64,000 nucleotides of DNA from Candidatus Cloacimonadota bacterium (GCA_030600585.1 JAUVLU010000003.1:13871-77870); one strand, 5' to 3'. Shown: positions 48,028 through 62,075, counted from the stretch's first letter. Notes: generated from the letters alone by a model not told the origin. Program-made: numbers and translations.

Positions 48028-48816
48028 ATGTTTCATTTATATAAAAAAGCTAATTATTCAGGAAAGCTTAAGACTCAATTAATTGAATTAGGAATAAAGT
48101 ATGCAAAGAACCATAATATTACAAATTACAAAAAGCATAAAAGTGCTCTTATTTTTGATATTAAGGATAATATCATAACATCGTCATATAAGCCCATAAA
48201 GAGTAGTAATGATTGGGAAAAAAGATTAGAAAAACCTCATACCCATTTTCCAAATTCAAATGTTAAAGAATTAAGCTCTTCAAATAGTTCAGATGCACTT
48301 CTAATGAATATTTTTTGCCATCCAGAATTGAATAAATGGAAATCGATCAAAAAATTATTTAATCAAGTAGAAATTAAACCCAATTTTGGTTACAAACCAG
48401 GAGTTGAAAAAGATGGTGGGAAACCGGATGATACTGAAATTGATATGAAATTAAAAAATATGTATATTGAAGCGAAATTGACTGAATCTGATTTTACTAA
48501 AAAAGATAAAAGTATTGTAGAATCTTACGATAAGTTTGAGGAAGTCTTTGAAAAAAATTATTTAGAGCAAGATTCCAATAAATATTATAAATATCAGTTA
48601 ATTAGAAATATTTTAGCAGCTTATCAAGATGGTGTAAACTTTATCCTTTTATGTGATGCAAGAAGACCAGATTTAATTAGGGATTTTTATTTAACTGTAA
48701 GATGTGTTAAAAATGTTTCATTGAGATCGAGATGTAACATAATTTTTTGGCAGGAAGTATGTAAATGTGTTGGAGGGAATTTAAAACCATTTTTAATAGA
48801 AAAATATGGTTTATAA
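48028..48816 (+). CDS. Putative PD-(D/E)xK nuclease, related to the nuclease domain of 45222-47228
   Basis: SSDALLMNIF, TEID, EAKLTE, YQLIRN; ATG at 48028 after AAGGAGG. Confidence 0.75.
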   Translation: MFHLYKKANYSGKLKTQLIELGIKYAKNHNITNYKKHKSALIFDIKDNIITSSYKPIKSSNDWEKRLEKPHTHFPNSNVKELSSSNSSDALLMNIFCHPELNKWKSIKKLFNQVEIKPNFGYKPGVEKDGGKPDDTEIDMKLKNMYIEAKLTESDFTKKDKSIVESYDKFEEVFEKNYLEQDSNKYYKYQLIRNILAAYQDGVNFILLCDARRPDLIRDFYLTVRCVKNVSLRSRCNIIFWQEVCKCVGGNLKPFLIEKYGL

Positions 48817-48831
48817 ATTATCAAAATAATT

Positions 48832-50616
48832 CTACTCCCACTCAATAGTTCCCGGTGGTTTGGTGGTTATATCATAAAGCAGATTTCCCGCATCGTCAAT
48901 ATTTCTAATCAAATTTGAAAGTCTTAGAAATTCTGTAAAATCCATTTCATACACACTGGCACTCATTGCATCGAATGAACAAACAGGTCTCATTACATAA
49001 CACAACTTGTTATCAGTGTTTCTTAATGGCAATTGAACAACCGGCATCTGCCAGATCTCTTTTATATCATCAGTTCTTTTCCGTAAAACCGCATCAACAT
49101 TTCTCAATTCATCAAGGTTGTGTTTTTCTAAAAATAGTTTTTCCAGATGCAAATCATCAACAGGATTCAAAGAAAATATAAGCCTGTTTACCGTTTTTAA
49201 TTTATTTATTACTTTAGAGGAACATTCATTTATCACTTTCCAATCTGCTTCGATATCTTTTTTGAACCATATAATCGCCGGATGATGATAAGTGCGAAAA
49301 TCACCCTGAACGCCTACACTTTTTATTGGAAGAATTTTGCCTTCCATTTTGAATTCACTCAGGATTTTATTCATAAATTTTTCTTCTTTTGTATAATCAA
49401 TTTGTGATTTTGTTTTATCCGAGCAAATAACTCTGATTGCCAGTCCCGGACCCGGGAATGGATGACGATGAACAAGTTTGTGCGGAAGCCCGAGTTCTTC
49501 TCCGAGTTTGCGGACTTCATCTTTATAAAGCTCTTTAATCGGCTCGATGATCTTTCCTTCCGAAATCAGTTTTTCAATTTCATCAACCCGATTGTGATGA
49601 GTTTTTATCAGAGCTGCTTTATCCGTTGAACCACTTTCTATTGTATCAGGATAAATAGTTCCCTGCACCAAAATAAATTCTTCTTCTTTTGAAAGTTTTT
49701 CCAGTTCCTCATTGGCAATATCAACAAATAATTTACCAATAATTTTCCGCTTTTCTTCAGGTTCGACAATTCCTTCCAGTTCTTTTAAATATAAGTCTTC
49801 CGCTTCGATTATTTTGATATTTTTAAAATTCAATTCTCGGAAATGTTCCATTATTTCTTTAGATTCATCCTTGCGCATAAAACCGGTATCGATGTGAATG
49901 GAATATACATTTTCGTTCCCAACAGCTTGAATGCAAAGCTCAAGAGCAACCAACGAATCCACCCCACCGGAAAGCAGCAGAACCAGCTTCCTGCCTTTTA
50001 CTTCGTTTCGAATTTCATCTGTTAATTGTTGTTTAAAGTTCTTCACTTTCCAATTACGTTCTTGAGTGCATAATTCTACGAAATTATCCAGCATTTTCAT
50101 TCCGTTCTCGGTATGCGTAACTTCAGGATGAAATTGGAATCCGAAATACTTATCAGACTCATAAGCAACGATCTTTACGGAATTAGTAGAAGCGGTTATT
50201 CGGAAGCTTTGCGGCAAAGAACAAACGTGATCTCCGTGACTCATCCAGACTTTTTGCTCTGTATTTAATTTTCTAAAAAGAACGGAATTTTTATTATCGC
50301 AGGTTATGGAAGTAAAACCATATTCTTTGTTTTCCCCACTTTCTATCTTACCGCCTACCATTTTTGCCAGAAGTTGATGTCCGTAACATATCCCTAAAAT
50401 AGGAATTTCATTTGTTGCTATATCAAATTTAATTCGATATGCATCATCTGCGTTTACTGATTGCGGACCTCCCGAGAAAATTATTCCTACAACGTCATTG
50501 TCTTTTCCGAAATTCTCCGGATTTATTATCTCACTATAAACACCCAGATCACGGATTCTGCGCGCGATGAGATGAGTGTATTGTCCACCGAAATCAATTA
50601 TTATTATTTTTTCCAT
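48832..50616 (-). CDS. guaA: GMP synthase (glutamine-hydrolysing)
   Basis: IDFGGQY, GICYGHQL, QFHPEV, SGGVDS, IKTHHN, RHPFPGPGL, KPPGTIEWE. Confidence 0.95.
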   Translation of the reverse strand: MEKIIIIDFGGQYTHLIARRIRDLGVYSEIINPENFGKDNDVVGIIFSGGPQSVNADDAYRIKFDIATNEIPILGICYGHQLLAKMVGGKIESGENKEYGFTSITCDNKNSVLFRKLNTEQKVWMSHGDHVCSLPQSFRITASTNSVKIVAYESDKYFGFQFHPEVTHTENGMKMLDNFVELCTQERNWKVKNFKQQLTDEIRNEVKGRKLVLLLSGGVDSLVALELCIQAVGNENVYSIHIDTGFMRKDESKEIMEHFRELNFKNIKIIEAEDLYLKELEGIVEPEEKRKIIGKLFVDIANEELEKLSKEEEFILVQGTIYPDTIESGSTDKAALIKTHHNRVDEIEKLISEGKIIEPIKELYKDEVRKLGEELGLPHKLVHRHPFPGPGLAIRVICSDKTKSQIDYTKEEKFMNKILSEFKMEGKILPIKSVGVQGDFRTYHHPAIIWFKKDIEADWKVINECSSKVINKLKTVNRLIFSLNPVDDLHLEKLFLEKHNLDELRNVDAVLRKRTDDIKEIWQMPVVQLPLRNTDNKLCYVMRPVCSFDAMSASVYEMDFTEFLRLSNLIRNIDDAGNLLYDITTKPPGTIEWE

Positions 50617-50631
50617 TTTCTTCCTTTTTTT

Positions 50632-50756
50632 CACCGCGAAGACGCGAAGCTAAAATTTTGCATTATTTTTTTTCTTTATTCTTCATAATTTTTCTTTTCC
50701 TTTCCGTCCTTTGCGCCTTTTTAACACGGCGTAGTGTAACGAAGACGGTTGCGGTT
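50632..50756. repeat. GxxExxY-type inverted-arm element with a 30-nt insertion in the right arm
   Basis: CACCGCGAAGACGCGAAG-spacer-CTTTGCGCCTT[50720-50749]TGCGGTT; spacer nearly identical to the copy at 54436. Confidence 0.85.
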
Positions 50757-50783
50757 TATTCTTTTTCCTCTTTTCAATTATCA

Positions 50784-51389
50784 TCATTTTTGTTCTTTCC
50801 TTTCCGCTCTTTGCGTCTTTGCGGTGAAAACTTCTTTCAAGCATTCACTATAAAATCTATGCTCAACTTTCAATCCTGTTTGTTCTACTTCTTCTATCGT
50901 TTCGCAATCCGAAATATTAACTTCTTTTTTTCCGATCACACTTCCCGTGTCGAGTCCTTTATCTACAAAATGAACAGTGATTATAGTTCTTTCCAGCTTA
51001 TTTTCAAAAGCCCATTCATAACCGTGTAAACCCTGATGAAAAGAAGTATCCGCAGGATGGATATTGATAATCATTTTTTGGAATTCTTTTATGATCTTCG
51101 GTGAAAGAATCTTCATATAACCTGCCAAAATAATGAAATCCGGATTTTGTTGTTTCAACCAATCCAAAAGCATTGTATTGTAGGTTTTTCTCTTCTTTCC
51201 TCTTGATTCAATGATTTTAGTTTTGATCCCAAAACTTTTTGTTTTTTGTAGTCCTTCAGCATCCGGTTTATTAGAAAATACTGATTGAATCGTGCAAATA
51301 TCTTTCAATATGCCGGACTGAACGTTTCTGACAATTGCTAGCATATTACTGCCACGACTACTGATCATAATAATAATTTTTTTTTTCAT
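50784..51389 (-). CDS. purN: Phosphoribosylglycinamide formyltransferase
   Basis: SSRGSN, LAGYMKIL, INIHP, HFV..GLDTG; last ~14 codons come from a repeat arm. Confidence 0.92.
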   Translation of the reverse strand: MKKKIIIMISSRGSNMLAIVRNVQSGILKDICTIQSVFSNKPDAEGLQKTKSFGIKTKIIESRGKKRKTYNTMLLDWLKQQNPDFIILAGYMKILSPKIIKEFQKMIINIHPADTSFHQGLHGYEWAFENKLERTIITVHFVDKGLDTGSVIGKKEVNISDCETIEEVEQTGLKVEHRFYSECLKEVFTAKTQRAERKEQK

Positions 51390-51398
51390 ATTTTTTCT

Positions 51399-51540
51399 CA
51401 CCGCTAAGACGCTAAGAACGCCAAGTAATCTCCTCTTGAGACGCTGTACTGAGCTTGTCGAAGTAGGAGTCCGACTTTAGTCGGGAGGTGTGTTTTTTCT
51501 TCATCATTGGAAATTCCGTGTTCGATATTGGATATTCGCT
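51399..51540. repeat. Composite repeat: GxxExxY-type arm + family B double hairpin (with 24-nt insert) + GAAATTCCG..TTCGATATT unit
   Basis: Same order of units as at 57833-57930. Confidence 0.78.
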
Positions 51541-51545
51541 TTCTC

Positions 51546-52643
51546 TCATCTTAACTCATCTAACCAACCGGCTGTTTTGTTCAGATTCCTCTTAAATATT
51601 CTACCTTCATTGCGAGCATCTTTTGCCTGATGATATTTGAAGTATATTTCATTGTTAATGATTCCTAAAATTTCAATCTTACCGGTCTTATGAGATATCA
51701 CATACCGGAATCGTTTACTGTGTCCGTTCATCATAGCTTTTGCTTTTTCAACAATCTGATAACCTTTATATAACGGTATTTGAAAGTATTGTTTAACTCT
51801 TTTTACGGGACGACATTGAAAAACATAATACGGATTAACTCCTATTTTTACCAATTTATTTTGCAGTTCTGCTAAAACATCGGGTTTATCATTGATATCT
51901 TTCATTAAAACCGTTTGATTGTTCAAAATAATCCCTGATAATAATAATTTTTTAACTGCTGCCTGAAGTTCTTTTGTCATTTCTTTCGGATGATCGATTT
52001 GCAGAACAAAGTATATTTGCTTTCTTTTTGAATATTTTTTTAGAACAGAAAGCAATTCGCTGTCTTCTAAAATTCTTTGCGGTAAAAAAACAGGAACTTT
52101 AGTACCGAACCTGATAAAATCAAGATGTTCGATTTTTGTAAATCCGTTCAAAAAATTTTCTATTACTTTTGTTGAAAGCATTAACGGATCACCACCGGTT
52201 ACCAGAACATTATTGATTTCCTTATGATCATTAATATACTTTTTGGCTTTTTCGAGATTATGAAATATTTCTTTTGAAGATACACCGACCATTCTTTTTC
52301 GAAAACAAAATCTGCAGTAACTTGCACATCTGTGGGTTGATAATATCAAAGCAGTTTGAGAATACTTATGCTGAAGCCCTATGAATTTTGTATTACCTTT
52401 TTCATCGCTTGTATCATAAGAACCGGTTAAATCTAATTCATTAACGGAAGGAACTATCATTTTTCTGATTGGATCTTTAGGGTCTTCAAAATCTATCAAA
52501 GACAAATAATGTTTAGAAATACTCATAGGATGTCTTTTAACAACTTTTTTCAGAAGTTTTTTTTCTTTTGAATTTAAATCCAGATAATTTTGTAATTCTT
52601 CTATGGTGGTTACATTAAATTTTAATTCACTTTTCCAATTCAT
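51546..52643 (-). CDS. KamA-family radical SAM aminomutase-like protein
   Basis: HKY, CASYCRFC, VTGGDPL, NQTVL, PYYVFQC, GKIE (PLP Lys position). Confidence 0.87.
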   Translation of the reverse strand: MNWKSELKFNVTTIEELQNYLDLNSKEKKLLKKVVKRHPMSISKHYLSLIDFEDPKDPIRKMIVPSVNELDLTGSYDTSDEKGNTKFIGLQHKYSQTALILSTHRCASYCRFCFRKRMVGVSSKEIFHNLEKAKKYINDHKEINNVLVTGGDPLMLSTKVIENFLNGFTKIEHLDFIRFGTKVPVFLPQRILEDSELLSVLKKYSKRKQIYFVLQIDHPKEMTKELQAAVKKLLLSGIILNNQTVLMKDINDKPDVLAELQNKLVKIGVNPYYVFQCRPVKRVKQYFQIPLYKGYQIVEKAKAMMNGHSKRFRYVISHKTGKIEILGIINNEIYFKYHQAKDARNEGRIFKRNLNKTAGWLDELR

Positions 52644-52645
52644 AA

Positions 52646-53932
52646 TTAAATCCTGAAATTTCTTTTCCCAATATTTTTTCTGTAAAACATATTGTCAAAA
52701 TAAAAAAGTTTTACTTTCTTATAAGCATTTTCGATGGCTTTTTCTAAAGTATTTCCGCAAGCTACAATGTTCAGAACCCGTCCGCCGTTCGTCAGGAATT
52801 TATCTCTTTCTTTTTTTGTTCCTGCGTGGAAAACAAGTTCTTTCGCTTCTTCCAACCCGCAGATAGGAATTCCTTTTTTATACGCTTTGGGATATCCACC
52901 GGAAGCAAGAACAATATCCACGAAAAAACCGTCATTGAATTCCATTTTGAAATCTTTCAATGTTCCATCAAAGCAGGAAAGAACAAGTTGCAGCAGATCA
53001 CTTTTTAATGCCGGTAAAACCACTTCTGTTTCAGGGTCTCCAAGGCGGACATTGTATTCAAGAAGTTTTGGACCTTCTTTGGTTATCATCAAACCAAAAT
53101 ATACAACACCTTTAAAATTGAATCCCTCAGCTTTTATACCATTCATCGTTGGTTTAATTATATCATTTTCGATTCGTTTTTTAAGTTCCTCCGTATAAAA
53201 TGGAACAGGACAGAAAGCTCCCATTCCACCGGTATTTGGTCCTTTATCACCATCCAATAATTGTTTGTGATCTTGTGATGGCAGTAATAATTTATAATCA
53301 TTCCCGTCGGTAAATGCAAGTATGGAAAGCTCGGAACCTTCCAGTTTTTCCTCGATCAGATAGGATGCTTCTACCCCATATTTTTGGCGTATATCTTCTA
53401 AAGCAGCAAATGCTTCTTCTTGCGTTGAACAAACAAAAACACCTTTTCCTGCTGCAAGTCCGTCGTATTTTATAACACAGTCTCCGTTCATTTTTACTAT
53501 CGTGTCATTTATTGCAATGTTATCCTGAGTCCCGATTTTTTCGGGAAAGTATTCACTTTGACAGATTCCGCCAAATTCCCGATAATCCCCGGTAACCACA
53601 CCATATTTTTTCATAAATCTTTTAGCATAGATTTTTGACCCTTCCAACTTAGCTCCGGCTTTATCGGGTCCAAAAACTTTTACTGGAGTATCTGCAAAGT
53701 AATCAACAATACCTTCTGCAAGCGGATCTTCCGGACCTACAACGATAAGTTCAATTGTTCTATGCTTGCATAAATTTAATATAGCCTCAAAATCATTTAC
53801 ATCAATATTTACATTGTTTTTTGTTCCGCCGTTCCCGGGCAGAACAAATACTTTTTGAGCACTTTTGCTTTGTGATAATTTCCAGGCAATAGCGTGTTCC
53901 CTGCCACCTGAACCGATTACTGCAATATTCAT
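52646..53932 (-). CDS. purD: Phosphoribosylamine-glycine ligase
   Basis: GSGGREHA, VGPE, KYDGLAAGKGV, QDHK, NTGGMGA, EYNVRLGDPE, TNGGRVL. Confidence 0.95.
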   Translation of the reverse strand: MNIAVIGSGGREHAIAWKLSQSKSAQKVFVLPGNGGTKNNVNIDVNDFEAILNLCKHRTIELIVVGPEDPLAEGIVDYFADTPVKVFGPDKAGAKLEGSKIYAKRFMKKYGVVTGDYREFGGICQSEYFPEKIGTQDNIAINDTIVKMNGDCVIKYDGLAAGKGVFVCSTQEEAFAALEDIRQKYGVEASYLIEEKLEGSELSILAFTDGNDYKLLLPSQDHKQLLDGDKGPNTGGMGAFCPVPFYTEELKKRIENDIIKPTMNGIKAEGFNFKGVVYFGLMITKEGPKLLEYNVRLGDPETEVVLPALKSDLLQLVLSCFDGTLKDFKMEFNDGFFVDIVLASGGYPKAYKKGIPICGLEEAKELVFHAGTKKERDKFLTNGGRVLNIVACGNTLEKAIENAYKKVKLFYFDNMFYRKNIGKRNFRI

Positions 53933-53947
53933 ATTTCTCCTTTTATT

Positions 53948-53974
53948 CACCGCAAAGACGCTAAGAACGCTAAG
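53948..53974. repeat. GxxExxY-type repeat arm
   Basis: CACCGCAAAGACGCTAAGAACGCTAAG between the GxxExxY stop and the purD RBS. Confidence 0.85.
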
Positions 53975-53978
53975 TTTT

Positions 53979-54365
53979 TTACAAATTATTTACTTTTCTT
54001 TTTATACCATTCTTGATTAAAGTAACATTAAAATTAATAAGATAACCAAGTCTTTTATCTGATAATTTAAGATATGATATTAATTGAGCGTCGTGGATTG
54101 GTAATAATTTTTCTACTGCTTTTAATTCAATTATGATTTCATTTTCAACTAATAAATCTAAACGATAGCCAACATCTAGTTTCTTTCCTTTGTAAAACAC
54201 AGGTAATGCTTTTTGCTGTTCAACTTTCAAACCTCGTAATATCAACTCCATAACTAAACAAACTTCATAAGCAGATTCAAGCAAACCGGGACCTAATGCT
54301 TTATGAACACAGTATGCTGCATCAACAATTTGCTTTCCTATTGCTTCAAGTTTTTCTCTGTTCAT
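53979..54365 (-). CDS. GxxExxY family protein (PD-(D/E)xK-like)
   Basis: GPGLLESAYE, RLDLLV...IELK, QLISYLK, GYLINF. Confidence 0.92.
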   Translation of the reverse strand: MNREKLEAIGKQIVDAAYCVHKALGPGLLESAYEVCLVMELILRGLKVEQQKALPVFYKGKKLDVGYRLDLLVENEIIIELKAVEKLLPIHDAQLISYLKLSDKRLGYLINFNVTLIKNGIKRKVNNL

Positions 54366-54386
54366 TACTTATTTCCTTTTTTTATT

Positions 54387-54537
54387 CACCGCAAAGACGC
54401 GAAGAACGCTAAGTTTCCCTTAATTTCTTTTTATTCACCGCTAAGTTCGCGAAGACGCGAAGCTAAGATTTTGCATTATTTTTTTTCTTTATTCTTCATA
54501 ATTTTTCTTTTCCTTTCCGTTCTTTGCGCCTTTGCGG
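54387..54537. repeat. Two tandem left arms plus a complete inverted-arm element
   Basis: Arms at 54387-54413, 54436-54462 and 54522-54537. Confidence 0.85.
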
Positions 54538-55923
54538 TTAATTTTTCCTTATCTCCTCATCTGCTTTGATCAATGTTTCTTTTATTTCTGCTATCTCATT
54601 TATAAACACATCTTTCAGCCTTCTGATACCCAAACTACGCAGAGCAGCAAGAGCAGCCGAGCTTACATCTATAACTGTGGAAGCAGGTGTTTTGGAGGGC
54701 ATTATAAGCGATGAATTGATGTTTACCATCATATCGATCTTATCTTTGAATGGAGGACAATTTATAACTGGAATTGCCAAGTTTGCAGCAAGTGCTCCAC
54801 CGAGTCCGTTCGATCTTCCGGCAACCGCAATCACGCATCCGGGTTCTAAAGAATTATTGTAAACTTCGGCAATCTCGGGAATTCGTTCTCCATTTTTATG
54901 AGCAGAAACCACTCGCATATTCACGAAAATACTGTATTTATCCAAAATTGCTTTGATCTTCTTACAATGCTCCATATCAGCAGGCGAACCCATAATTATC
55001 GAAACAAAACCGTCCTTGATGAGTTCTGCTTTTAAAAGATTATAATAAATTCTGTCCCGGACATCACAATCACAAATTTCAAATTCCTTTCCTACTATTT
55101 TCTCATAAATATTCACGTATTTATTGGAAGCTTCCGCTATCACATCTTCGGGAAGAACATTCGGAACAACGCCGTTTTTTTTATTATTCAGAAGCCATTG
55201 GCGAATAAATTCTTTATCCATCGAATCTATTTTCAACGGATTTTTTTCATAATCTTCCTTGCTCCAGAATCTGGATGAATCGGGAGTATGAATCTCATCG
55301 ATCAGAATAAGTTCTCCATTACAAAGTCCAAATTCATATTTTGTATCCACCAGAATAATGCCTTTTTTGGAAAGTTCTTTTGTCCCAAGTTCAAAAAGCT
55401 CCAGAGAAATTTCTTTCATTTTCTGATAAATTCCTTTAGAAGTCCAACCCTCTTTAACGATATTTTCAGGAGTAATTTCCCTATCGGATTCTTCTTTTGT
55501 GGTGGGAGTTACGATCGGATTGGAAAACTTGGCATTCTGGTTAAGTCCATCTGAAACATCCACACCGCTGAAATTACGTTTTCCTTTTTTATAGCCGCGC
55601 CACATCGAACCCGTCAAATATCCTCGAACGATCATTTCCACCTTGATAGGCTCAGCTTCCTTAACTAAACTAATGTTCGAATCTACCGCTTTAATAAAAT
55701 GATTTTCGATTATATTGCGTGTTTTTTCAAACCAGTAATTTGTGATTCCATTCAGAACTGCTCCTTTATTGGGAATCAAATTATTCAAAACGCTGTCAAA
55801 ACTTGAGACTCTGTCCGATACGACGATCATCCTGATCTTATCATCGATCCTGAAACTTTCTCTTACTTTTCCGCTGTGTATTTTTTTTAACTGCGGAGTG
55901 TAAATTTTGTCTAAATACTTCAT
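54538..55923 (-). CDS. purC-purE: Bifunctional SAICAR synthetase / class II AIR carboxylase fusion
   Basis: SGKVRE, SDRVSSFD, VRGYLTGS, DTKYEFG, DEIHTPDSSRFW; then IIMGSPAD, SAHK, AVAGRSNGLG, in one frame. Confidence 0.92.
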   Translation of the reverse strand: MKYLDKIYTPQLKKIHSGKVRESFRIDDKIRMIVVSDRVSSFDSVLNNLIPNKGAVLNGITNYWFEKTRNIIENHFIKAVDSNISLVKEAEPIKVEMIVRGYLTGSMWRGYKKGKRNFSGVDVSDGLNQNAKFSNPIVTPTTKEESDREITPENIVKEGWTSKGIYQKMKEISLELFELGTKELSKKGIILVDTKYEFGLCNGELILIDEIHTPDSSRFWSKEDYEKNPLKIDSMDKEFIRQWLLNNKKNGVVPNVLPEDVIAEASNKYVNIYEKIVGKEFEICDCDVRDRIYYNLLKAELIKDGFVSIIMGSPADMEHCKKIKAILDKYSIFVNMRVVSAHKNGERIPEIAEVYNNSLEPGCVIAVAGRSNGLGGALAANLAIPVINCPPFKDKIDMMVNINSSLIMPSKTPASTVIDVSSAALAALRSLGIRRLKDVFINEIAEIKETLIKADEEIRKN

Positions 55924-55941
55924 TCTATCTCCCTTTTTATT

Positions 55942-56065
55942 CACCGCAAAGACGCTAAGGACGCAAAAATTTTAAATAAAATATCTCCATTACTTTGTCT
56001 CTACGATATAATTTTAATAATCATTTTTTTTACTTTTTACTTTCCGCTCTTTGCGCCTTTGCGGT
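55942..56065. repeat. GxxExxY-type inverted-arm element with a different spacer
   Basis: CACCGCAAAGACGCTAAGGACGC...CTCTTTGCGCCTTTGCGGT between purH and purC-purE. Confidence 0.85.
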
Positions 56066-56069
56066 AACA

Positions 56070-57683
56070 TCAATGCTTAAAATGTCTGATACCAGTAAAG
56101 ACCATCGCCACACCGAGTTCATTACATTTCTTAATAACCGCTTTATCTTTTATGGAACCTCCAGGCTGGATAATATTCCTTATTCCCGCTTCTGCCGCCA
56201 GTTCCACATTATCTGCAAACGGAAAGAATGCATCAGAAATTAGAACAGCTTTCCCGAGTTCATCTTTGAAATATCGATCTAAATCTTCCGAGTTCCCATC
56301 AAATTCATTGTTTAGATTTTCTCTGGCTTTTTCGATTGCAAGTTTCGTAGAAATTAATCTGTTCGGTTGCCCAGCTCCCATTCCCAGAAGTTGGAAATTT
56401 CCGTTTTTCATTTCGCGAACTATGGTAATCGAATTCGATTTCACCTGCCGCATTGCTTTAATGCCAAATTCTATCAAACCCTTTTTAAAATCAATATCAA
56501 TTTGCTTTTCTGTTACATTTTTCAATTTATCATAAAGTTTATTGTCACAATCCTGCAACAAAAGCGAACCCGAAACATATTTGATTTCAAATTTCTGTTT
56601 GGAATCCTGCGGATCAAAGCAGATAACACGCAGGTTTTTGTGAAACTGCAGATATTCCAATGCTTCTTCCGAATATTCGGGAGCGATGATCACTTCCACA
56701 AATTTTCTCAATCTTTTATTTTCATTATTCAGATTCAGGAATTCCACCGTATTCAAATCAACAGGTTCATTGAAAGCAATGATCGAACCGAAAGCAGAGA
56801 TAGGATCTCCGTTCCAGGCATCTTCAAAAACTTTTCGTTGGTTATTTCCTTCTGCCAATCCGCACGGATTGTTATGTTTGATGATCGCACAACCAAATCG
56901 TTTCAAGTTTTTTACGGAATCGACTGCACTTTGAATATCCCCGATATTATTGTAGGAAAGCTCTTTCCCGTGCAGAATCTTCATATCGGCAAGCGAATTT
57001 TCTGCTCCGATTTCTTTATAAAAATATCCTTCCTGATGTGAATTTTCGCCGTAACGCAATTTCTTTCCGTCAGAAAAAGCCAGTCGTAATGATCGTTCTC
57101 CTGCTTGTTCGTCCATTGTTGTGGAAATTAGAGCATCGTAATCTGCAGTATGATTGAACGCTTTTCTCATTAACTTGAATCTTGTATTAAAAGAAATGTT
57201 TCCATCATTTTCATTAAGTTCTAAAATCATATTTTTGTAGTCATTAACATCAGTGACGGTTGCTACATACTTGAAATTCTTGGCAGCAGCACGTATCATC
57301 GTGGGACCGCCAATGTCGATATTTTCTATCAGGGTCTCAAAATCAGCTCCTGATTCTTTAACTTTTTCAAAAGGATACAGGTTGCAAACAACCATATCTA
57401 TTGGTTTAATTCCCAGTTTTTCAGTTTCCTGCTTATCTTTTTCCCGATCAAAAAGTAGCGCTGATTCGATATTGAATGAGATCGTTTTCATCCTTCCACC
57501 GAATGCTTCCGGATTCCCGGTAACTTTTTGGATGTCGGTAACTTGAATTCCAGCAGCTTCCAACACTTTTTTTGTGCCACCTGTGGAAATAATTTCACAA
57601 TCGAATTCCTGCAAAGCTTTAGCCAGATCTACAATTCCAGTTTTATCGGAAACGCTGATCAAAGCTCGTTTAATTTTTATCAT
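56070..57683 (-). CDS. purH: Bifunctional AICAR transformylase / IMP cyclohydrolase
   Basis: RALISVSDK, STGGT, IDIGGPTMIRAAAKN, YGENSHQ, KHNNPCG, SDAFFPF, QPGGS. Confidence 0.96.
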   Translation of the reverse strand: MIKIKRALISVSDKTGIVDLAKALQEFDCEIISTGGTKKVLEAAGIQVTDIQKVTGNPEAFGGRMKTISFNIESALLFDREKDKQETEKLGIKPIDMVVCNLYPFEKVKESGADFETLIENIDIGGPTMIRAAAKNFKYVATVTDVNDYKNMILELNENDGNISFNTRFKLMRKAFNHTADYDALISTTMDEQAGERSLRLAFSDGKKLRYGENSHQEGYFYKEIGAENSLADMKILHGKELSYNNIGDIQSAVDSVKNLKRFGCAIIKHNNPCGLAEGNNQRKVFEDAWNGDPISAFGSIIAFNEPVDLNTVEFLNLNNENKRLRKFVEVIIAPEYSEEALEYLQFHKNLRVICFDPQDSKQKFEIKYVSGSLLLQDCDNKLYDKLKNVTEKQIDIDFKKGLIEFGIKAMRQVKSNSITIVREMKNGNFQLLGMGAGQPNRLISTKLAIEKARENLNNEFDGNSEDLDRYFKDELGKAVLISDAFFPFADNVELAAEAGIRNIIQPGGSIKDKAVIKKCNELGVAMVFTGIRHFKH

Positions 57684-57701
57684 TACTACCTCTTTCATAT
57701 T

Positions 57702-57930
57702 CACCGCTAAGTTCGCAAAGACGCAAGGAAAAACATTGGAACCACCTGTCTACGTTAAAACTACGCCAAGGCAGGCGAATTTGCACGAATATACACTAAT
57801 TTTTTGCAACGAACAAAACTAACAAAGAATTAACCACAGAGTTCACGGAGAGCACGGAGTAAATCTCCTCTTGAGAGGAGTACGGCTTCAGCCGGGAGGT
57901 GTGTTTCATTTGAAATTCCGCATTCGATAT
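57702..57930. repeat. Array of five different short repeat types in one intergenic region
   Basis: CACCGC arm (57702), ACCAC[31-nt insert]GAATTTGCACGAAT, CAACGAAC..AACTAACAAAGAA (also at ~1778), ACCACAGAG arm (57833), family B (57862-57906). Confidence 0.78.
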
Positions 57931-57945
57931 TTTCCATAATTACCC

Positions 57946-59682
57946 TTAAACTTTGTTCCTAAAATTAATCACATAAAACATCATCAATTCTTCCAATCTG
58001 GATTCAAACACTTCAAAATTCTCAGGTTCTTTATAATCTTCTATCATCTTTTCTGCCTGATCAAGATTCGATTTGAAGATTTCATTAATATTTTCAGTTT
58101 TTCCTAATTCAAATTTTTTCATATTCAATAATGTATCTAAATTAAGATTCAACGGAGTTTGGAAATCTTTCTCATCCAAATGATTCCAATTGCCGGTCTG
58201 TAAATCCAGTTTATAATACGGAAGAAAAAGATGACCATTTTTTACGATGAATTTCAATACATTGATAATATATTCAAATTCCTCGATAGAAATCGCATAA
58301 TGCAAATTAACTCTGACCCAACCGGGTTTCATTCCGGAATATTTATCAATTCCTACCAAACATTGATAATACTTGGAAAGCTCTTCGCTGATACCGAGAA
58401 GTGTATGACCATACGGACCTGCACAAGAACAGCCCGCACGAGTTTGAATTCCAAAAAGATCATTCATAAGTTTAGTTACTAATTTTGGGTGCAGTATTCT
58501 ATCTTTATGCTTAATATTAAAGGGAATAATACCTATCTTCTTATGAATATCCGCAGGACCATAAAAAATTATTTTATCCTCATTTTTGAAGCTATCATAG
58601 AATCTTTTTAGAAAATATTGTTCGATTTTCTCGATATTATTTACCCCTATTTTTTCTTTCAACTGGAAAATCAGGGAAACTTTAATGTTTTGCAGAATTC
58701 CGGGAGTTCCGGGTTTTTCACGGGTTTCGATATCTTTAACAAATTGTTCTCTTTTCTTTGTTACATAATCTACCGTTCCGCCGGCAGCGATAGATGGTGG
58801 AAGATCTTTTGGATATATTTTTTCGTTGATAATAAGAATTCCGGAAGTTCCCGGACCACCTAAGAATTTATGTGGAGAAAGAAAAATAGCGTCAAAATAG
58901 CTTTCTTTATCTTTGTTCATATTTATCTCGATATATGGCGCACAGGCAGCGAAATCGAAACAGGCAATTGCATTGTGCTTATGAAGAATTCTTGCAACTT
59001 CATACACCGGTGTTTTAATACCGGAAACATTCGATGCTGCAGAAAAGGAACCGATTTTAAAACGGTTATCATACTTTGTATCCGACACAATTTTTTCCAG
59101 TTCGATAAGATCGAGTTCACCCTCTGCGTTCAATGGAATTTCAATAATTTCACAAAGCGTCTGCCGCCACATTATTTCATTGGAATGATGTTCATAAGGT
59201 CCCACAAAAACGATGGGCTTCCTACCTTGGATATGAGCTTTTAATTCTGAATTACATTTTGTTCTTCCCGGGTAGCGAACTATACAACTATCAATAAACT
59301 CATTGATCCTTTTCTTTGTGGCAGGAGGCCAATAAACTCCCAGAATCTGCTGAAGTCGTGTGATACCACCTGTTGTGCCGGATTCCGTAAAAATTATTTT
59401 TCCCGTATCTCCTGCATTAACATTTCTTTTTATGATCCTTTCAGCTTCGTGCAAAAGTTCAGTCATTGTTTTACCGGTAAAATCATCTTCGGTGTGAGTA
59501 TTGGCATAATACTGCATAATGTGCATCAGATAATTCTCTATCGAATATAAGCACCTTCCGCTGGCAGTGTAATCCGCATAAACAAGTGGTTTCTCTCCGA
59601 AAGGTGTTTTGAACATTTTATTGCGTCCGATAATATCAGCTCGGAGCCATTCAAGATTTTTGATTAATTCTTCAGGTTTCAT
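57946..59682 (-). CDS. Class V PLP-dependent aminotransferase (cysteine desulfurase-like)
   Basis: YADYTASGR, YANTH, GPYEHHSN, DFAA, SPHKFLGGPG, GGTV, RAGCSCAGPY. Confidence 0.88.
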   Translation of the reverse strand: MKPEELIKNLEWLRADIIGRNKMFKTPFGEKPLVYADYTASGRCLYSIENYLMHIMQYYANTHTEDDFTGKTMTELLHEAERIIKRNVNAGDTGKIIFTESGTTGGITRLQQILGVYWPPATKKRINEFIDSCIVRYPGRTKCNSELKAHIQGRKPIVFVGPYEHHSNEIMWRQTLCEIIEIPLNAEGELDLIELEKIVSDTKYDNRFKIGSFSAASNVSGIKTPVYEVARILHKHNAIACFDFAACAPYIEINMNKDKESYFDAIFLSPHKFLGGPGTSGILIINEKIYPKDLPPSIAAGGTVDYVTKKREQFVKDIETREKPGTPGILQNIKVSLIFQLKEKIGVNNIEKIEQYFLKRFYDSFKNEDKIIFYGPADIHKKIGIIPFNIKHKDRILHPKLVTKLMNDLFGIQTRAGCSCAGPYGHTLLGISEELSKYYQCLVGIDKYSGMKPGWVRVNLHYAISIEEFEYIINVLKFIVKNGHLFLPYYKLDLQTGNWNHLDEKDFQTPLNLNLDTLLNMKKFELGKTENINEIFKSNLDQAEKMIEDYKEPENFEVFESRLEELMMFYVINFRNKV

Positions 59683-59699
59683 ATAATATCCTTTATCAT

Positions 59700-62075
59700 T
59701 CATAAAAAAGGTGTCGATCCAAAAATATCTTGTCTTAATTGAAACCATTCCACCTCAATTTCTAACAATTCTAAATCTTCACGAAGTTTATTAATCTTAC
59801 TTTCAATATTTTTATTACAGTTATTATCTAAAGAAGAAAAAATTATTTTATTGGGTCTGATTATTTCTGCAACTTTCTTCATTGATGTAAAATCCTTATT
59901 TTTAAAGCCTTTAATAGATTGTTTAATTTCTCCAATAATTAATTTACCATCTTGGATACATATAATGTCTAAGTCTGTAAAGTGTTCTTTTTCACCAAAC
60001 TTAAATACATCTTGAGATGTCTCATATATGAAAGAAGTGTTACATTCTTCAAATAATTGTCCTAAAGTCAATATGACAGGAGTCAAACCCTGTTGAGAAT
60101 ACCCAAATCTAACAAGACTATTTAATTTATAAAACCATTTTTCTTCAGGTGCGATATTGAATCCGCTACGACATCCTTTGCATATTATATCTTGTTGGAT
60201 TTCATCAATATGATACCATTCACTTAAACCACAGCTAGGACATTGTGGTTGTAAACCTATCTGTAAGATGTTTTGCTTAATCAACTCCGATAATGTTTTT
60301 TTAAGATTTTCAATAAAATGCTTATTTTTATATCCAAGTTTTTTGTTTTTTATATTCGAGTTAAAAGCACTACATTCCTTTCTAGCTTCTTTTTTAAATA
60401 TCGACCAAGTAATTTCTTTATTTAAATTAACAATATCTTTAGATCGATTTAAGACATATTCAGTTAACCAAGTTAAATCCTCTTCACTCTTTAGAAAATT
60501 AATACCTTTTTTAGACAAAGCATTTTTAATTTCTTCTTTTTTTCTATCATCCTTTTTAGGATTTACATTTGATAGAATATCAAACATATGTCTCCAATAT
60601 CTAATTTCAATATACTGTTTTGCAATAAATAAATTACCAAAAAGGTTAATAAAACCAGACATATATTTTCCAGTGTTAGAAGGTTTAATATAAGATAGCC
60701 TTCTATGATTCAAATTGTATCTTGCATCTGCTTTTATAAAAGCTTTGTTTTCATCTGTTAATAAAATCCGAAATATTTCTGAGTCACTTATCAAATTTAT
60801 TTTAAGATTCTGAACATCATGAGCTAATAATACAGAGGGGAAGCCATTCGAACATATTCTTGATGAACCATTAAATATTCTATACGCTAACATATTATGT
60901 TTCGGTAATCTCCACCATAAAGTTCTTCCCTGAAAATTAGGATAACGTTCAGGATGATGTTGAATAAATATATCAGCAACCCAACTTTCGCCTATCATGA
61001 AACTTTTTTCAATATCTGGTGGATTTATTATTATTTGATTTTGATCGCCTGTAACTTGAAATGAGTCCATTTCATTTGTTATCGAAACAAAATTACTTCT
61101 CTGTTGAAATTCTGGAGTTTTAATTTCATTATAAGTTTCCGTAATATTTGATAGAACATTTTTTGTAAGCCTATCGGATATAACTTTCAGTTCATCTTTT
61201 GAAAGACTAAAACTAATGAATCTAATTCGGTGGTTACTTCTACTACTATTCCAACAAATCGTTTTAAGCCATTTTTTTAAAACTTCTCCAAACTCAATAT
61301 CGTTTGATAAATCAACTGAAAGCCAGATATTATTGAAATACTTTTTTTGCCATTCTGGATATGATAAGCTAATATTCCAATTATAAACAATATCTTCTGG
61401 AGAATCACCCACGATGATGGTAAATGGACTTTCAACTCCACTATATTTAACTTCCCGAAATTTATATGGTATTGAACATATCTGAATTGGATAAGCAAAA
61501 TTATTATAAATACTTAAATCTTTTAAAGCAGATATAAGTTCTTCCTTTTTTTTAATATTAAATATTTTTTTATTATTATCATCTAATTTATGAATATCTT
61601 TTAGATTAATTGGATATGAACCGAAATTGATATTTATAAATTGTTTTATAAATGTATCTAAATCTTTATCTTTATCAAAAAGAACAAGTGTGGAGCTGAA
61701 TAATTTATTTATATTCTCAATAGTTGGATGTATCGATAATCCTTTGTAAATAGAATGAATATTGTTGTGTAATGGATTTTTTATTTCTAATGATATTGGA
61801 TTGATAAAAAAATCAATTTTTTTTACTAATTCTTTATCAAGTTGTATAAAAGAAATAATTATATCTGGATCGATGTTACATAATAAATTCCACCAGTTCT
61901 TTTTAATTTTTTTACCATCTGTAAATATGATTGGATTATATCTACCTCCCCATTTATGAATGTTGTATTCTATAACCAATTGAATTTGCATTATCGCATC
62001 TTTTTTAGGATTGATTAAAAATGCAATCCTTATTGGACGTTTATCAATATAAATTGAATATGGTTCTTGTTTCAT
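59700..62075 (-). CDS. Large AT-rich hypothetical protein with a C-terminal Zn ribbon and PD-(D/E)xK-like nuclease domain
   Basis: CPSC...CKGC; TDLD...GEIK; N-terminal RPIRIAFLI...WGGRYNPII. Confidence 0.7.
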   Translation of the reverse strand: MKQEPYSIYIDKRPIRIAFLINPKKDAIMQIQLVIEYNIHKWGGRYNPIIFTDGKKIKKNWWNLLCNIDPDIIISFIQLDKELVKKIDFFINPISLEIKNPLHNNIHSIYKGLSIHPTIENINKLFSSTLVLFDKDKDLDTFIKQFININFGSYPINLKDIHKLDDNNKKIFNIKKKEELISALKDLSIYNNFAYPIQICSIPYKFREVKYSGVESPFTIIVGDSPEDIVYNWNISLSYPEWQKKYFNNIWLSVDLSNDIEFGEVLKKWLKTICWNSSRSNHRIRFISFSLSKDELKVISDRLTKNVLSNITETYNEIKTPEFQQRSNFVSITNEMDSFQVTGDQNQIIINPPDIEKSFMIGESWVADIFIQHHPERYPNFQGRTLWWRLPKHNMLAYRIFNGSSRICSNGFPSVLLAHDVQNLKINLISDSEIFRILLTDENKAFIKADARYNLNHRRLSYIKPSNTGKYMSGFINLFGNLFIAKQYIEIRYWRHMFDILSNVNPKKDDRKKEEIKNALSKKGINFLKSEEDLTWLTEYVLNRSKDIVNLNKEITWSIFKKEARKECSAFNSNIKNKKLGYKNKHFIENLKKTLSELIKQNILQIGLQPQCPSCGLSEWYHIDEIQQDIICKGCRSGFNIAPEEKWFYKLNSLVRFGYSQQGLTPVILTLGQLFEECNTSFIYETSQDVFKFGEKEHFTDLDIICIQDGKLIIGEIKQSIKGFKNKDFTSMKKVAEIIRPNKIIFSSLDNNCNKNIESKINKLREDLELLEIEVEWFQLRQDIFGSTPFL

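What the first reader, a model, noticed from the sequence alone, without database searches (positions are those of the whole stretch)
50616..57730. GxxExxY gene inside the pur operon, with a cognate repeat arm fused to the RBS of six genes
Seen: on the coding strand, guaA, purN, purD, the GxxExxY gene, purC-purE and purH are each directly preceded by ...CTT(A/T/C)GCG..TTTGCGGTGAA-type arms running into A-rich RBS sequence and ATG (arms at 50632, 51399, 53948, 54387, 55942, 57702). Opposite arms start at or within 5 nt of the purC-purE and purH stops. Arms are built from ~9-nt CGC(A/T/G)AAGA units. Established: GxxExxY proteins are small PD-(D/E)xK-like proteins of unknown function. Inference: a REP/RAYT-like selfish system with a non-HUH nuclease as master gene, or domesticated mRNA processing or translation signals that segment the operon.
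Basis: partly seen in the sequence, partly recalled or inferred. Interest (0 to 1): 0.7.

Follow-up and report, generated by a model that had tools for sequence, protein, structure and literature searches.

The report
Mobile nuclease cassettes riddle pur operon
The repeats in front of six purine-synthesis genes are the ends and gene-less leftovers of small selfish DNA cassettes carrying a Cas4-like "GxxExxY" nuclease gene; they sit between operon genes without breaking them, and here one is missing from one gene junction and present at another.

Summary
On the coding (minus) strand, guaA, purN, purD, the GxxExxY gene, purC-purE and purH are each preceded by a phased ~9-nt array (CTTNGCG units ending GCGGTGAA) that stops 5-15 nt before the Shine-Dalgarno sequence. 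Complementary arrays (TTAACCGCAAAG...) start at the purCE and purH stops.

The arms are not ancestral operon signals. A same-family genome with no GxxExxY gene has a compact, overlapping pur operon with no arms. Same-genus genomes show each junction as empty, gene-less hairpin, or GxxExxY cassette.

In 61 cassettes each protein clade has its own arm unit (CGC.AAG, CAC.GAG, CAC.AAG, CGAACAAAAC, CAGGAT). Arm counts track GxxExxY presence across 62 genomes.

A relative with about 96% nucleotide identity carries the cassette at purN|guaA. This genome has a clean deletion there, bounded by direct arms. It carries a circularly permuted copy at purCE|purD, whose protein nests among purN|guaA copies.

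Best reading: a REP/RAYT- or Ssn-like partnership run by a RecB/Cas4-fold nuclease, riding on operon transcription. Binding and cutting of the arms are inferred, not shown. I found no paper describing this for GxxExxY.

The parts
53979..54365 (-). GxxExxY gene (128 aa), a RecB/Cas4-fold PD-(D/E)xK nuclease of subtype A
   Evidence: TIGR04256 at 8e-45 and PF13366 at 3e-43. E30, D70, E80-x-K82 and Q94xxxY98 are invariant in 66 homologues. AlphaFold2 pLDDT 95.5. Best fold match is Cas4 SSO0001, 4ic1, prob 0.97, E 0.018.
54385..54413 (-). Right arm (CTTAGCGTTCTTCGCGTCTTTGCGGTGAA) directly upstream of the GxxExxY 5' UTR and SD
   Evidence: It is a direct repeat of the arm at 53946-53974.
54414..54433 (-). 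20-nt spacer TAAAAAGAAATTAAGGGAAA between two right arms
   Evidence: In L092 the homologous spacer lies downstream of the gene, which gives the circular permutation.
54434..54542 (-). Gene-less hairpin element: left arm 54542-54513 (its TAA is the purCE stop), an A-rich loop with a 7-codon mini-ORF, and right arm 54467-54434
   Evidence: I4. RNA fold -23.4 kcal/mol, z -2.9. 97.7% identical over 86 nt to the copy at 50635-50720, and these are the only two copies in the genome.
53946..53974 (-). Right arm between the GxxExxY stop and the purD SD
55940..56067 (-). Gene-less hairpin between purH and purCE: left arm 56067-56039, right arm 55967-55940
   Evidence: I15. Sense RNA fold -36.9 kcal/mol, z -5.5. 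Relatives G002, G006, G008, G009, G011, G012 and G021 carry a GxxExxY gene at this junction.
57700..57728 (-). Family-A right arm upstream of the purH SD
   Evidence: (D3)
57806..57859 (-). Stacked solo right arms of family B (CTCCGTGCTCTCCGTGAACTCTGTGGTTAA, 57859-57830) and family C (TTCTTTGTTAGTTTTGTTCGTTGC, 57829-57806)
   Evidence: Read. The families were defined from relatives. Most of this segment is absent from the close relative L116.
51397..51425 (-). Family-A right arm upstream of purN
   Evidence: D1
50800..50828 (-). Left arm translated as the C-terminal tail of PurN (...FTAKTQRAERKEQK*)
   Evidence: I2. The same purN-arm fusion is present in G024 and L092.
50628..50758 (-). Gene-less hairpin at purN|guaA. 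Relative to L092 this is the site from which UTR-GxxExxY-arm-spacer-arm is missing. It carries a nested 30-nt insert at 50748-50719.
   Evidence: MAFFT alignment with L092 and blastn blocks
48832..57683 (-). Host operon purH, purCE, purD, KamA-family rSAM, purN, guaA, whose junctions are colonised
   Evidence: Junction table across 23 loci.

Best explanation
The arms are the two ends, and the gene-less remnants, of small selfish cassettes of the form [left array - SD - GxxExxY nuclease gene - right array - SD].

These cassettes settle in the sense orientation in the junctions between co-transcribed genes and have no recognisable promoter of their own. Their sequence keeps the operon readable. 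The left array begins TTAACC and often supplies the stop codon or a short harmless tail for the upstream gene. Its purine-rich 3' end is the SD of the nuclease gene. The right array is followed by an SD for the downstream host gene.

Deletions that remove the gene must keep that SD. That is why solo right arms pile up directly in front of host ribosome-binding sites.

Shown here:
- The arms are insertions that are absent from compact relatives.
- The same junction can be empty, hold a gene-less hairpin, or hold a full cassette.
- Every protein clade has its own arm unit.
- Arm numbers follow gene presence.
- In this lineage the cassette is absent from purN|guaA, with a clean deletion between direct right arms. 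It is present, circularly permuted, at purCE|purD.

Inferred:
- The RecB/Cas4-fold nuclease recognises the phased 7-nt units of its own arms, probably as single-stranded or hairpin DNA.
- It nicks or cuts there.
- The break is repaired from another arm-bearing copy (arm-guided gene conversion, that is homing into cognate hairpins) or by annealing between direct arms (loss of the gene, possibly as a circle).

The confidence of 0.65 is for the cassette-and-relic reading as a whole. For the inferred step that the nuclease itself reads and cuts its arms I would give about 0.4.
For: Arms are real and non-random: 8 matches against 0.06 expected. The two-unit pattern occurs in 34 of 62 family genomes, and the reversed control pattern occurs in none.

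Empty state:
- G014 has no GxxExxY gene, overlapping pur stop/start codons and no arms.
- Same-genus G009 has 27-nt and 38-nt junctions without arms.
- Junction lengths fall into three groups: empty at about 60 nt or less, gene-less at about 80-280 nt with arms, and full cassettes at about 430-800 nt.

Cognate relation:
- In 61 cassettes each clade has its own unit.
- The four combinations of C-R-C-N-R-A-G all occur, each with a separate clade.
- Mantel r = 0.27, p = 0.001.
- A strong inverted repeat flanks 31 of 60 cassettes against 33 of 590 control genes.

Co-occurrence:
- Spearman 0.61.
- Genomes with a subtype-A gene have a median of 9.5 arms against 0 without one (p = 2e-5).
- 14 of 15 GxxExxY-free genomes have no arms.

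Movement:
- L092 is 95.7-96.7% nt identical in purD-kamA and guaA and has the cassette at purN|guaA.
- G000 equals L092 minus UTR-gene-arm-spacer-arm, with the breakpoints in direct right arms.
- The G000 purCE|purD copy matches L092 in permuted block order.
- Its protein nests (support 90/98) in a clade whose other six members all sit at purN|guaA. Same-genus purCE|purD copies are only 76% identical.

Nuclease competence: invariant E, D, ExK and QxxxY, and 63-70% identity across phyla.

Orientation: cassettes are co-oriented with the downstream gene 28:1.
Against: - No biochemical or read-level evidence exists. Arm-protein covariation is also expected from simple co-inheritance of a linked unit.
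- Genomes G056 (26 arms) and G063 (35 arms) have many family-A arms but no subtype-A gene at 72% identity or more. MAG incompleteness could contribute to this.
- Four-helix-bundle genes, which are not nucleases, sit in the same kind of phased-arm bracket. The bracket therefore does not need a nuclease.
- No target-site duplication or shared insertion motif was found.
- The cross-genome correlation is not corrected for phylogeny.
- The GxxExxY copies of G000 and L092 differ by 11% in nucleotides while the flanks differ by 4%. The relocation is therefore not a fresh event between these two genomes.
- The window comes from a metagenome-assembled genome. An assembly error at the 86-nt repeat cannot be formally excluded without reads.
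Confidence: 0.65

Rival explanations
1. The arms are host-serving RNA elements. Intercistronic hairpins would be cut (for example by RNase III) or would stabilise mRNA segments and set translation of each pur cistron. The GxxExxY gene would be a loop resident, or itself an RNA-processing factor, as in 23S rRNA intervening sequences.
For: - The orientation is strictly sense.
- The two arms differ in a strand-specific way: CGGAAAG 20:1 and CTT[ACG]GCG 50:2 on the coding strand against its complement.
- The hairpins are predicted to be stable as sense RNA: -36.9 kcal/mol, z -5.5, 12 kcal/mol better than antisense for the purH|purCE element.
- The arms end just upstream of the SD sequences.
Against: - Close relatives express the same operon from compact junctions without any arm.
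- Three unrelated arm families occupy the same junction within one genus.
- The second hairpin folds equally well on either strand.
- Family-A arms also lie in non-operon repeat mosaics.
- There is no Rfam family and no terminator-like site on the coding strand at the arms.
Confidence: 0.12
2. The arms are generic hairpin repeats (REP/MITE-like) spread by host recombination or by another enzyme. The small genes (GxxExxY, four-helix-bundle) are passengers that persist in hairpin loops and do not act on the arms.
For: - Non-nuclease four-helix-bundle genes have the same bracket.
- Some genomes have many arms without the cognate gene.
- The genome holds many other small palindromic repeat families in mosaics and eight Y1-transposase-like genes.
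Against: - The Y1-transposase genes are not flanked by these units: counts are at background level.
- The unit sequence changes in concert in all 4-8 units of both arms whenever the protein clade changes.
- 14 of 15 genomes without GxxExxY have no family-A arm.
- The nuclease motifs are invariant and the protein is 63-70% identical across phyla. That is hard to reconcile with an idle passenger.
Confidence: 0.15
3. The nuclease and its repeats form a host-level system that works like Ssn/NTS in Neisseria. A site-specific single-strand nuclease would cut repeat-bearing ssDNA and so modulate transformation, recombination or repair. The movement seen here would be a by-product.
For: - A published precedent exists for small nucleases flanked by the hairpin repeats they cut as ssDNA (PMC11893778).
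- The RecB/Cas4 fold includes enzymes that cut ssDNA sequence-specifically (plus my own knowledge of Cas4).
- Conservation across phyla is very high.
Against: - There are only about 26-45 arms per genome here and several mutually exclusive arm families per genome. This gives a poor genome-wide tag.
- The genes are patchy even within a genus (0-9 per genome).
- The cassettes sit in operon junctions rather than around particular gene classes.
Confidence: 0.08

Closest known systems
REP/REPIN repeats with their RAYT transposase (Bertels and Rainey 2011, PMC3116915; Di Nocera et al. 2013, PMC3733652)
   Same: - A single small enzyme gene is bracketed by inverted copies of a short repeat.
- That repeat is far more numerous elsewhere as gene-less hairpin doublets in extragenic space.
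- Each enzyme clade has its own repeat family.
- The repeats lie mostly between co-directional genes.
   Different: - The enzyme is a PD-(D/E)xK RecB/Cas4-fold nuclease, not an HUH tyrosine transposase.
- The arms are arrays of 2-4 phased 7-nt units with a variable centre, not a 20-40-nt palindrome with a GTAG or CGTC tag.
- There are several copies and several families per genome.
- The cassettes carry translation signals and live inside operons.
Ssn family of GIY-YIG site-specific ssDNA nucleases with NTS/SRM repeats (Chenal et al. 2025, PMC11893778)
   Same: - A nuclease gene of about 100-130 aa is flanked on both sides by the hairpin repeats that are dispersed in the genome.
- Specificity differs between homologues.
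- This is the nearest demonstrated mechanism for 'a small nuclease cuts its own flanking repeat'.
   Different: - The fold is unrelated (GIY-YIG against PD-(D/E)xK).
- The repeats are single hairpins, not phased unit arrays.
- Activity is demonstrated there and only inferred here.
23S rRNA intervening sequences with an internal ORF (four-helix-bundle 'IVS protein', PF05635)
   Same: - A small ORF is enclosed by a long-range stem inside a host transcript.
- In this genome the PF05635 genes have the same phased-arm bracket at operon junctions.
   Different: - The host is an mRNA operon, not rRNA.
- The cargo is a nuclease.
- No evidence of RNA excision is available.
Free-standing homing endonuclease genes between conserved genes (my own knowledge: phage T4 seg/mob genes; the PD-(D/E)xK homing enzyme I-Ssp6803I)
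   Same: - A promoterless nuclease gene is wedged between conserved co-transcribed genes.
- It shows presence/absence polymorphism between close relatives.
- Spread would be by repair of a break from a gene-bearing copy.
   Different: - Homing endonucleases recognise the empty host allele and have no terminal repeat arrays or gene-less derivatives.
- Here the likely target is the element's own arm.
Integron gene cassettes (attC hairpins, circular intermediates)
   Same: - Cassettes are promoterless and sense-oriented.
- The recombination sites are imperfect hairpins.
- The circular permutation seen here is what excision as a circle and re-entry at another site would give.
   Different: - Arms lie on both sides of the ORF.
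- No integrase is nearby.
- The cassettes are scattered through a housekeeping operon rather than arrayed at an attI site.

Membership tests
GxxExxY / PDDEXK_3 (TIGR04256, PF13366) | Profile score above the curated cut-off | tested here: met
   151.9 bits against a cut-off of 35, and 147.2 bits against a cut-off of 22
GxxExxY / PDDEXK_3 (TIGR04256, PF13366) | PD-(D/E)xK catalytic residues kept | tested here: met
   G27xxE30xxY33, D70, E80-x-K82 and Q94xxxY98 are invariant in 66 sequences
RecB/Cas4 nuclease fold | Structural match to Cas4 or lambda exonuclease cores | tested here: inconclusive
   Best Foldseek hit is Cas4 SSO0001 (4ic1): prob 0.97 but E 0.018 and TM 0.41. Lambda exonuclease and AdnAB follow. 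There is no sequence-level PDB hit.
Cas4 proper | Fe-S cluster cysteines and cas neighbourhood | tested here: not met
   Only one invariant Cys, C36. The neighbours are pur genes.
REP/REPIN-RAYT | The master gene is an HUH Y1 transposase | tested here: not met
   The master gene is PF13366. The genome's 8 Y1_Tnp-like genes are not flanked by these units.
REP/REPIN-RAYT | The gene is bracketed by inverted copies of its own repeat, and clade-specific repeat families exist | tested here: met
REP/REPIN-RAYT | Gene-less repeat doublets outnumber the gene and track its presence across genomes | tested here: met
   26-45 family-A arms against one subtype-A gene in G000. Spearman 0.61 and Mann-Whitney p = 2e-5, with the exceptions G056 and G063.
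REP/REPIN-RAYT | GTAG or CGTC tag on a 20-40-nt palindrome | tested here: not met
   The arms end TTAACC / GGTGAA and are phased 7-nt unit arrays. The tag definition is from PMC3733652.
Ssn/NTS | GIY-YIG (cd10448) nuclease | tested here: not met
   The only Pfam and NCBIfam hits are PF13366 and TIGR04256
Ssn/NTS | Site-specific cleavage of the flanking repeat as ssDNA | not testable with these tools
   Needs purified protein and oligonucleotide substrates
MITE with an autonomous IS | Terminal inverted repeats with gene-less deletion derivatives | tested here: met
   The gene-less hairpins keep the arms and the cassette's SD and start region. G000 against L092 shows the deletion.
MITE with an autonomous IS | Target-site duplication and a DDE or other known transposase | tested here: not met
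   Comparison of empty (G009) and filled (G013, G008, G007) purCE|purD junctions shows no direct duplication. There is no transposase domain.
Integron cassette | A single attC at the 3' end, an adjacent integrase and attI | tested here: not met
   Arms lie on both sides of the gene. No recombinase is among the operon ORFs.
23S rRNA IVS-type element | Excision of the stem-enclosed insert from the host RNA | not testable with these tools
Only fold predictions are available.

The most novel reading that the evidence does not exclude
GxxExxY proteins are the mobility and maintenance nucleases of a large, undescribed class of operon-riding cassettes.

A minimal RecB/Cas4-fold enzyme would read arrays of phased 7-nt units through a simple code. 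Positions 2 and 5 of C-R-C-N-R-A-G switch between clades. The enzyme would cut near the first unit, where nested inserts recur after CCGCAA. The cassette would then move between cognate hairpins by arm-guided gene conversion or through a circular intermediate, as the permuted copy here suggests.

The four-helix-bundle 'IVS proteins' would be a parallel, non-nuclease reader class.
Probability: 0.3. Interest if true: 0.8.

Novelty: new variant of a known kind. Interest (0 to 1): 0.65.

Why it matters
GxxExxY/PDDEXK_3 is a very large protein family. More than 8000 candidates were found in one search, with 63-70% identity across phyla. The 2012 PD-(D/E)xK survey lists its function as unknown, and I found no paper linking it to repeats.

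If the nuclease reads its own phased arms, three things follow:
- A whole layer of 'junk' hairpins in Cloacimonadota, Bacteroidota and other phyla is explained.
- A third, independent nuclease fold joins the 'small enzyme plus its own repeat' lifestyle known from RAYT and Ssn.
- It may offer programmable, short-motif ssDNA or hairpin nucleases.

For genome annotation, it explains spurious C-terminal tails (PurN here), the stacked repeats in front of ribosome-binding sites, and contig breaks at operon junctions.

This window adds something that earlier notes of this scan said was missing: a species-level presence/absence polymorphism with breakpoints in the arms, plus a relocated, permuted copy.

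Tried and rejected
- Exact-sequence look-ups of the window's GxxExxY and PurD found nothing, and records of the window's own genome may be left out of that collection.
- There was no sequence-level PDB relative and no Rfam family in 48500-60000.
- There was no terminator-like site at the arms on the coding strand, and promoter-like matches were at the chance level. I therefore dropped a terminator or attenuator reading.
- RAYT-type mobilisation was dropped because the Y1-transposase genes lack these units in their flanks.
- A generic inverted-repeat scan of relatives' purD loci was uninformative because the arms are too imperfect for it.
- A strict 15-mer pattern undercounted arms in relatives, so I replaced it with a two-unit pattern.
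- I looked for a target-site duplication by comparing empty and filled purCE|purD junctions and found none.
- I looked for a G-U signature that would favour one RNA strand. The mismatches are A·A or G·G and so say nothing either way (reading; folds).
- Literature searches for GxxExxY, PDDEXK_3 and PF13366 gave only incidental mentions.

Full report
**What is there**

The window is part of a 2.58-Mb, 34% G+C metagenome-assembled genome. Earlier notes of this scan place it in Cloacimonadota, and the database names of the closest homologues agree.

On the minus strand lie purH, a purC-purE fusion, a 128-aa GxxExxY gene, purD, a KamA-family radical SAM gene, purN and guaA.

Each array ends in GCGGTGA(A/G) and is followed within 5-15 nt by an A-rich Shine-Dalgarno sequence and the start codon.

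The core 15-mer occurs 8 times in 64 kb, all within this operon, against 0.06 expected.

Complementary purine-rich arrays (TTAACCGCAAAGGCGCAAAGAACGGAAAGG) start with the TAA of purCE and 3 nt after the purH stop. A third is translated as the last 14 residues of PurN.

**The arms are insertions, not ancestral operon signals**

- G014 is a 99%-complete genome of the same family with no GxxExxY gene. Its purH-purCE-purD-purN-guaA operon has overlapping or near-abutting stops and starts and no arm.
- Within the same genus, G009 has purCE|purD and purD|purN junctions of 27 and 38 nt without arms. G006 retains only a stub of a right arm of another family at purCE|purD.
- Over 23 pur loci, junction lengths fall into three groups: empty at about 60 nt or less with no arm units; roughly 80-280 nt with arms but no gene; and roughly 430-800 nt with arms plus a GxxExxY gene.
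- Most same-genus genomes carry one or two GxxExxY genes in this operon, but at different junctions.

**Gene and arms are one unit with clade-specific arms**

I extracted 61 GxxExxY genes with their flanks from 30-odd genomes.

| Protein subtype | Left unit | Right unit |
|---|---|---|
| A (the window's) | CGCAAAG / CGGAAAG | CTTNGCG |
| B | CAC(A/G)GAG | CTCNGTG |
| E (period 8) | CACNAAG | CTTNGTG |
| one divergent clade | CGCAGAG | not determined |
| C | CGAACAAAAC | GTTNGTTTT |
| D | CAGGAT-type | not determined |

Several further clades each have their own unit.

All four combinations of C-R-C-N-R-A-G exist, each tied to a different protein clade. Within a cassette all units of both arms carry the same combination. 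The modal spacing is 9 nt (70 of 121 spacings in the 7-12 nt range that was tallied), then 8 and 10.

Statistics:
- Protein identity and arm 6-mer similarity are correlated: Mantel r = 0.27, p = 0.001. Mean Jaccard rises from 0.03 below 45% identity to 0.19 above 80%.
- A strong inverted repeat brackets 31 of 60 cassettes against 33 of 590 control genes.

The same subtype with the same arms occurs at different pur junctions in different genomes. Three subtypes (A, B, C) occupy the same purCE|purD junction within one genus.

**Co-occurrence across genomes**

- A two-unit family-A pattern is present in 34 of 62 genomes of the family, with 0-35 copies. The reversed control pattern is present in none.
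- Arm number correlates with the number of GxxExxY genes (Spearman 0.61).
- Genomes with a subtype-A gene (72% identity or more; 10 genomes) have a median of 9.5 arms against 0 for the other 52 (Mann-Whitney p = 2e-5).
- 14 of 15 genomes without any GxxExxY gene have no arm.

The test is not corrected for phylogeny. G056 and G063 have 26 and 35 arms but no close subtype-A gene.

**Evidence that a cassette changed place**

L092 is a 3.3-kb contig of another assembly. It is 95.7% nt identical to the window over purD-kamA and 96.7% over the start of guaA. It carries a subtype-A gene, 91% identical in protein, at purN|guaA.

Aligned with the window, the two are collinear through the purN-fused left arm and a gene-less hairpin. 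L092 then continues with UTR-GxxExxY-right arm-20-nt spacer-right arm before the guaA SD. The window jumps from the hairpin's right arm (...TCGCGGTGAA) straight to the guaA SD. The difference is thus a clean indel whose two ends lie in direct right arms.

At purCE|purD the window has the same hairpin. That copy is 95.8% identical to L092's and 97.7% identical to the window's own purN|guaA copy. These are the only two copies in the genome. It is followed by spacer, right arm, UTR, gene and right arm. The same blocks as in L092 therefore appear in circularly permuted order.

In a maximum-likelihood tree the window's protein nests (support 90/98) in a clade whose six other members all sit at purN|guaA (G024, G049, G055 and three metagenome contigs). 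The purCE|purD copies of same-genus G013 and G008 lie outside this clade at 76% identity.

The simplest history has two steps. A purN|guaA cassette was copied or moved to purCE|purD by recombination at right arms. The donor site then lost the gene by recombination between direct arms. A circular intermediate, or copying around a circle or tandem, would give exactly the observed permutation. That step is inference.

Caveats: the two gene copies differ by 11% in nucleotides against 4% for the flanks, and purN itself is only 82% identical. The event is therefore not fresh, and local imports have occurred. The arrangement also rests on a metagenome assembly that I could not check with reads.

**Why the arms look fused to ribosome-binding sites**

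- In canonical cassettes (G013, G008, G024) the left array starts at the stop codon of the upstream gene or is read as a short hydrophilic tail. Its AAAGGAAA end is the SD of the nuclease gene. The right array is followed by the SD of the downstream gene.
- Any deletion that removes the gene must keep that SD, so right arms survive next to host starts.
- Upstream of purH, three right arms of families B, C and A are stacked. A relative lacks about 100 nt of that stack.
- The cassettes are co-oriented with the downstream gene 28:1 and with the upstream gene 29:7.
- The two arms are not simple complements. On the coding strand CGGAAAG occurs 20 times and its complement once. CTT[ACG]GCG occurs 50 times and its complement twice.
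- Stems therefore carry regular A·A or G·G mismatches at the unit centre and in the 1-2-nt spacers. Together with the concerted unit changes, this makes 'arrays of a short recognised motif' a better description than 'a selected perfect hairpin'. The strand asymmetry could equally reflect coding and SD constraints or recognition of one strand.

**The protein**

- The family is extremely conserved: 63-70% identity between Cloacimonadota, Deltaproteobacteria, Chloroflexota, Planctomycetota and Bacteroidota.
- E30, D70, E80, K82, Q94 and Y98 are invariant. These are the E...D...ExK...QxxxY motifs that I know from RecB-family nucleases.
- The AlphaFold2 model is confident (pLDDT 95.5).
- Its best, though weak, structural neighbours are Cas4 SSO0001, lambda exonuclease and AdnAB.
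- The Fe-S cysteines of Cas4 are absent.

An active nuclease acting on DNA ends or single strands is therefore plausible. What it cuts is unknown.

**Rivals**

- A host RNA function is disfavoured, because relatives do without the arms and because families are swapped at one junction. It cannot be excluded that the arms are also processed in the mRNA. The purH|purCE element is predicted to fold at -36.9 kcal/mol as sense RNA.
- A passenger model gains weight from the eight four-helix-bundle (PF05635) genes of this genome. These sit in analogous phased-arm brackets of yet other sequence families.
- The passenger model also gains weight from genomes that are rich in arms but lack the gene.
- The Y1-transposase-like genes of the genome are not associated with these units.

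**Comparison with what is known**

The arrangement works like REP/REPIN-RAYT and like the Ssn GIY-YIG nucleases, which cut the hairpin repeats flanking their own genes as ssDNA. It fails the defining enzyme feature of both.

It also shares features with free-standing homing endonuclease genes, MITEs, integron cassettes and ORF-bearing rRNA intervening sequences, without being a member of any of them.

Full-text searches for GxxExxY, PDDEXK_3 and PF13366 returned only incidental mentions and the 2012 survey that lists the family as of unknown function.

Earlier notes of this scan describe the same architecture in many other genomes. They record as the main gap that no element had been seen to move between close strains. 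I treated those notes as leads only. The polymorphism and permuted copy found here bear on that gap but do not close it.

**Verdict**

The REP/RAYT-like interpretation is supported at the level of association, covariation and turnover at the arms. Recognition and cleavage by the nuclease remain to be shown. I class it as a new variant of a known kind.

Noticed in passing
G000 contigs C19:9864-10172, C19:10854-11168, C26:15978-16292, C84:23906-24196, C38:37784-38053, C78:1640-1936: Eight four-helix-bundle ('23S rRNA IVS protein', PF05635) genes sit in the same kind of bracket. A purine-rich phased array lies upstream and its complement lies downstream, just before the next gene's SD. The unit families are different (for example AGGAATT with period 7, TTCAACCAA with period 9, and an array of about 11 nt).
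   Followed up: partly
window 50719-50748; L116 3790-3820; G000 C56:8509: A 30-nt nested insert (CCGTCTTCGTTACACTACGCCGTGTTAAAA) sits inside family-A left arms, always right after CCGCAA. It occurs at three different loci in two genomes, and L092 lacks it at the same hairpin. A second insert (ATTTATGCGCAGTGGCGTA) occupies nearly the same position in about 7 other arms. This could mark a break or insertion hot spot.
   Followed up: partly
window 51430-51533 and 57861-57936: Another composite repeat (GAATATCCAATATCGAACACGGAATTTCCAATGA... ACACACCTCCCGRCTRAAGYCG... CTCAAGAGGAG) precedes right arms at two junctions. It recurs at pur junctions of G012, G021, G024 and L117. The ACACCYCCC...hairpin part has 15 copies in the genome.
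   Followed up: partly
window 51546-52643: A KamA-family radical SAM gene lies between purD and purN in G000, G002, G012, G013, G020, G024 and L092. It is absent in G003, G006, G007, G009, G010, G011, G014 and G016. In L119 the gene caller fuses it to purD (781 aa).
   Followed up: no
window 50625-51391 versus L092 1802-2543: purN and its junction are only 82% nt identical between G000 and L092, while the flanking purD-kamA and guaA are 96-97% identical. This suggests a local recombinational import.
   Followed up: no
G011 (L035, L006; L100 5800-7680): Gene-less family-A hairpins of about 95 nt are tandemly amplified (at least three units) downstream of the GxxExxY gene and again between purCE and purD.
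   Followed up: no
G027:C1:786477-827837: About ten GxxExxY genes and fragments cluster within 41 kb. They include tandem near-identical copies separated by CGCAGAT-unit hairpins.
   Followed up: no
window 48832-50616: GuaA is 594 aa against profiles of about 510. The C-terminal domain matches in two stretches, which suggests an insertion of about 80 aa.
   Followed up: no
G000 C53:33331, C84:34562, C48:63517 and others: Family-A arms also occur outside operon junctions, inside mosaics of several other small palindromic repeats (GTCATCCTGAGC..., CCCCATCCCCAACCCTTCCCC...).
   Followed up: partly
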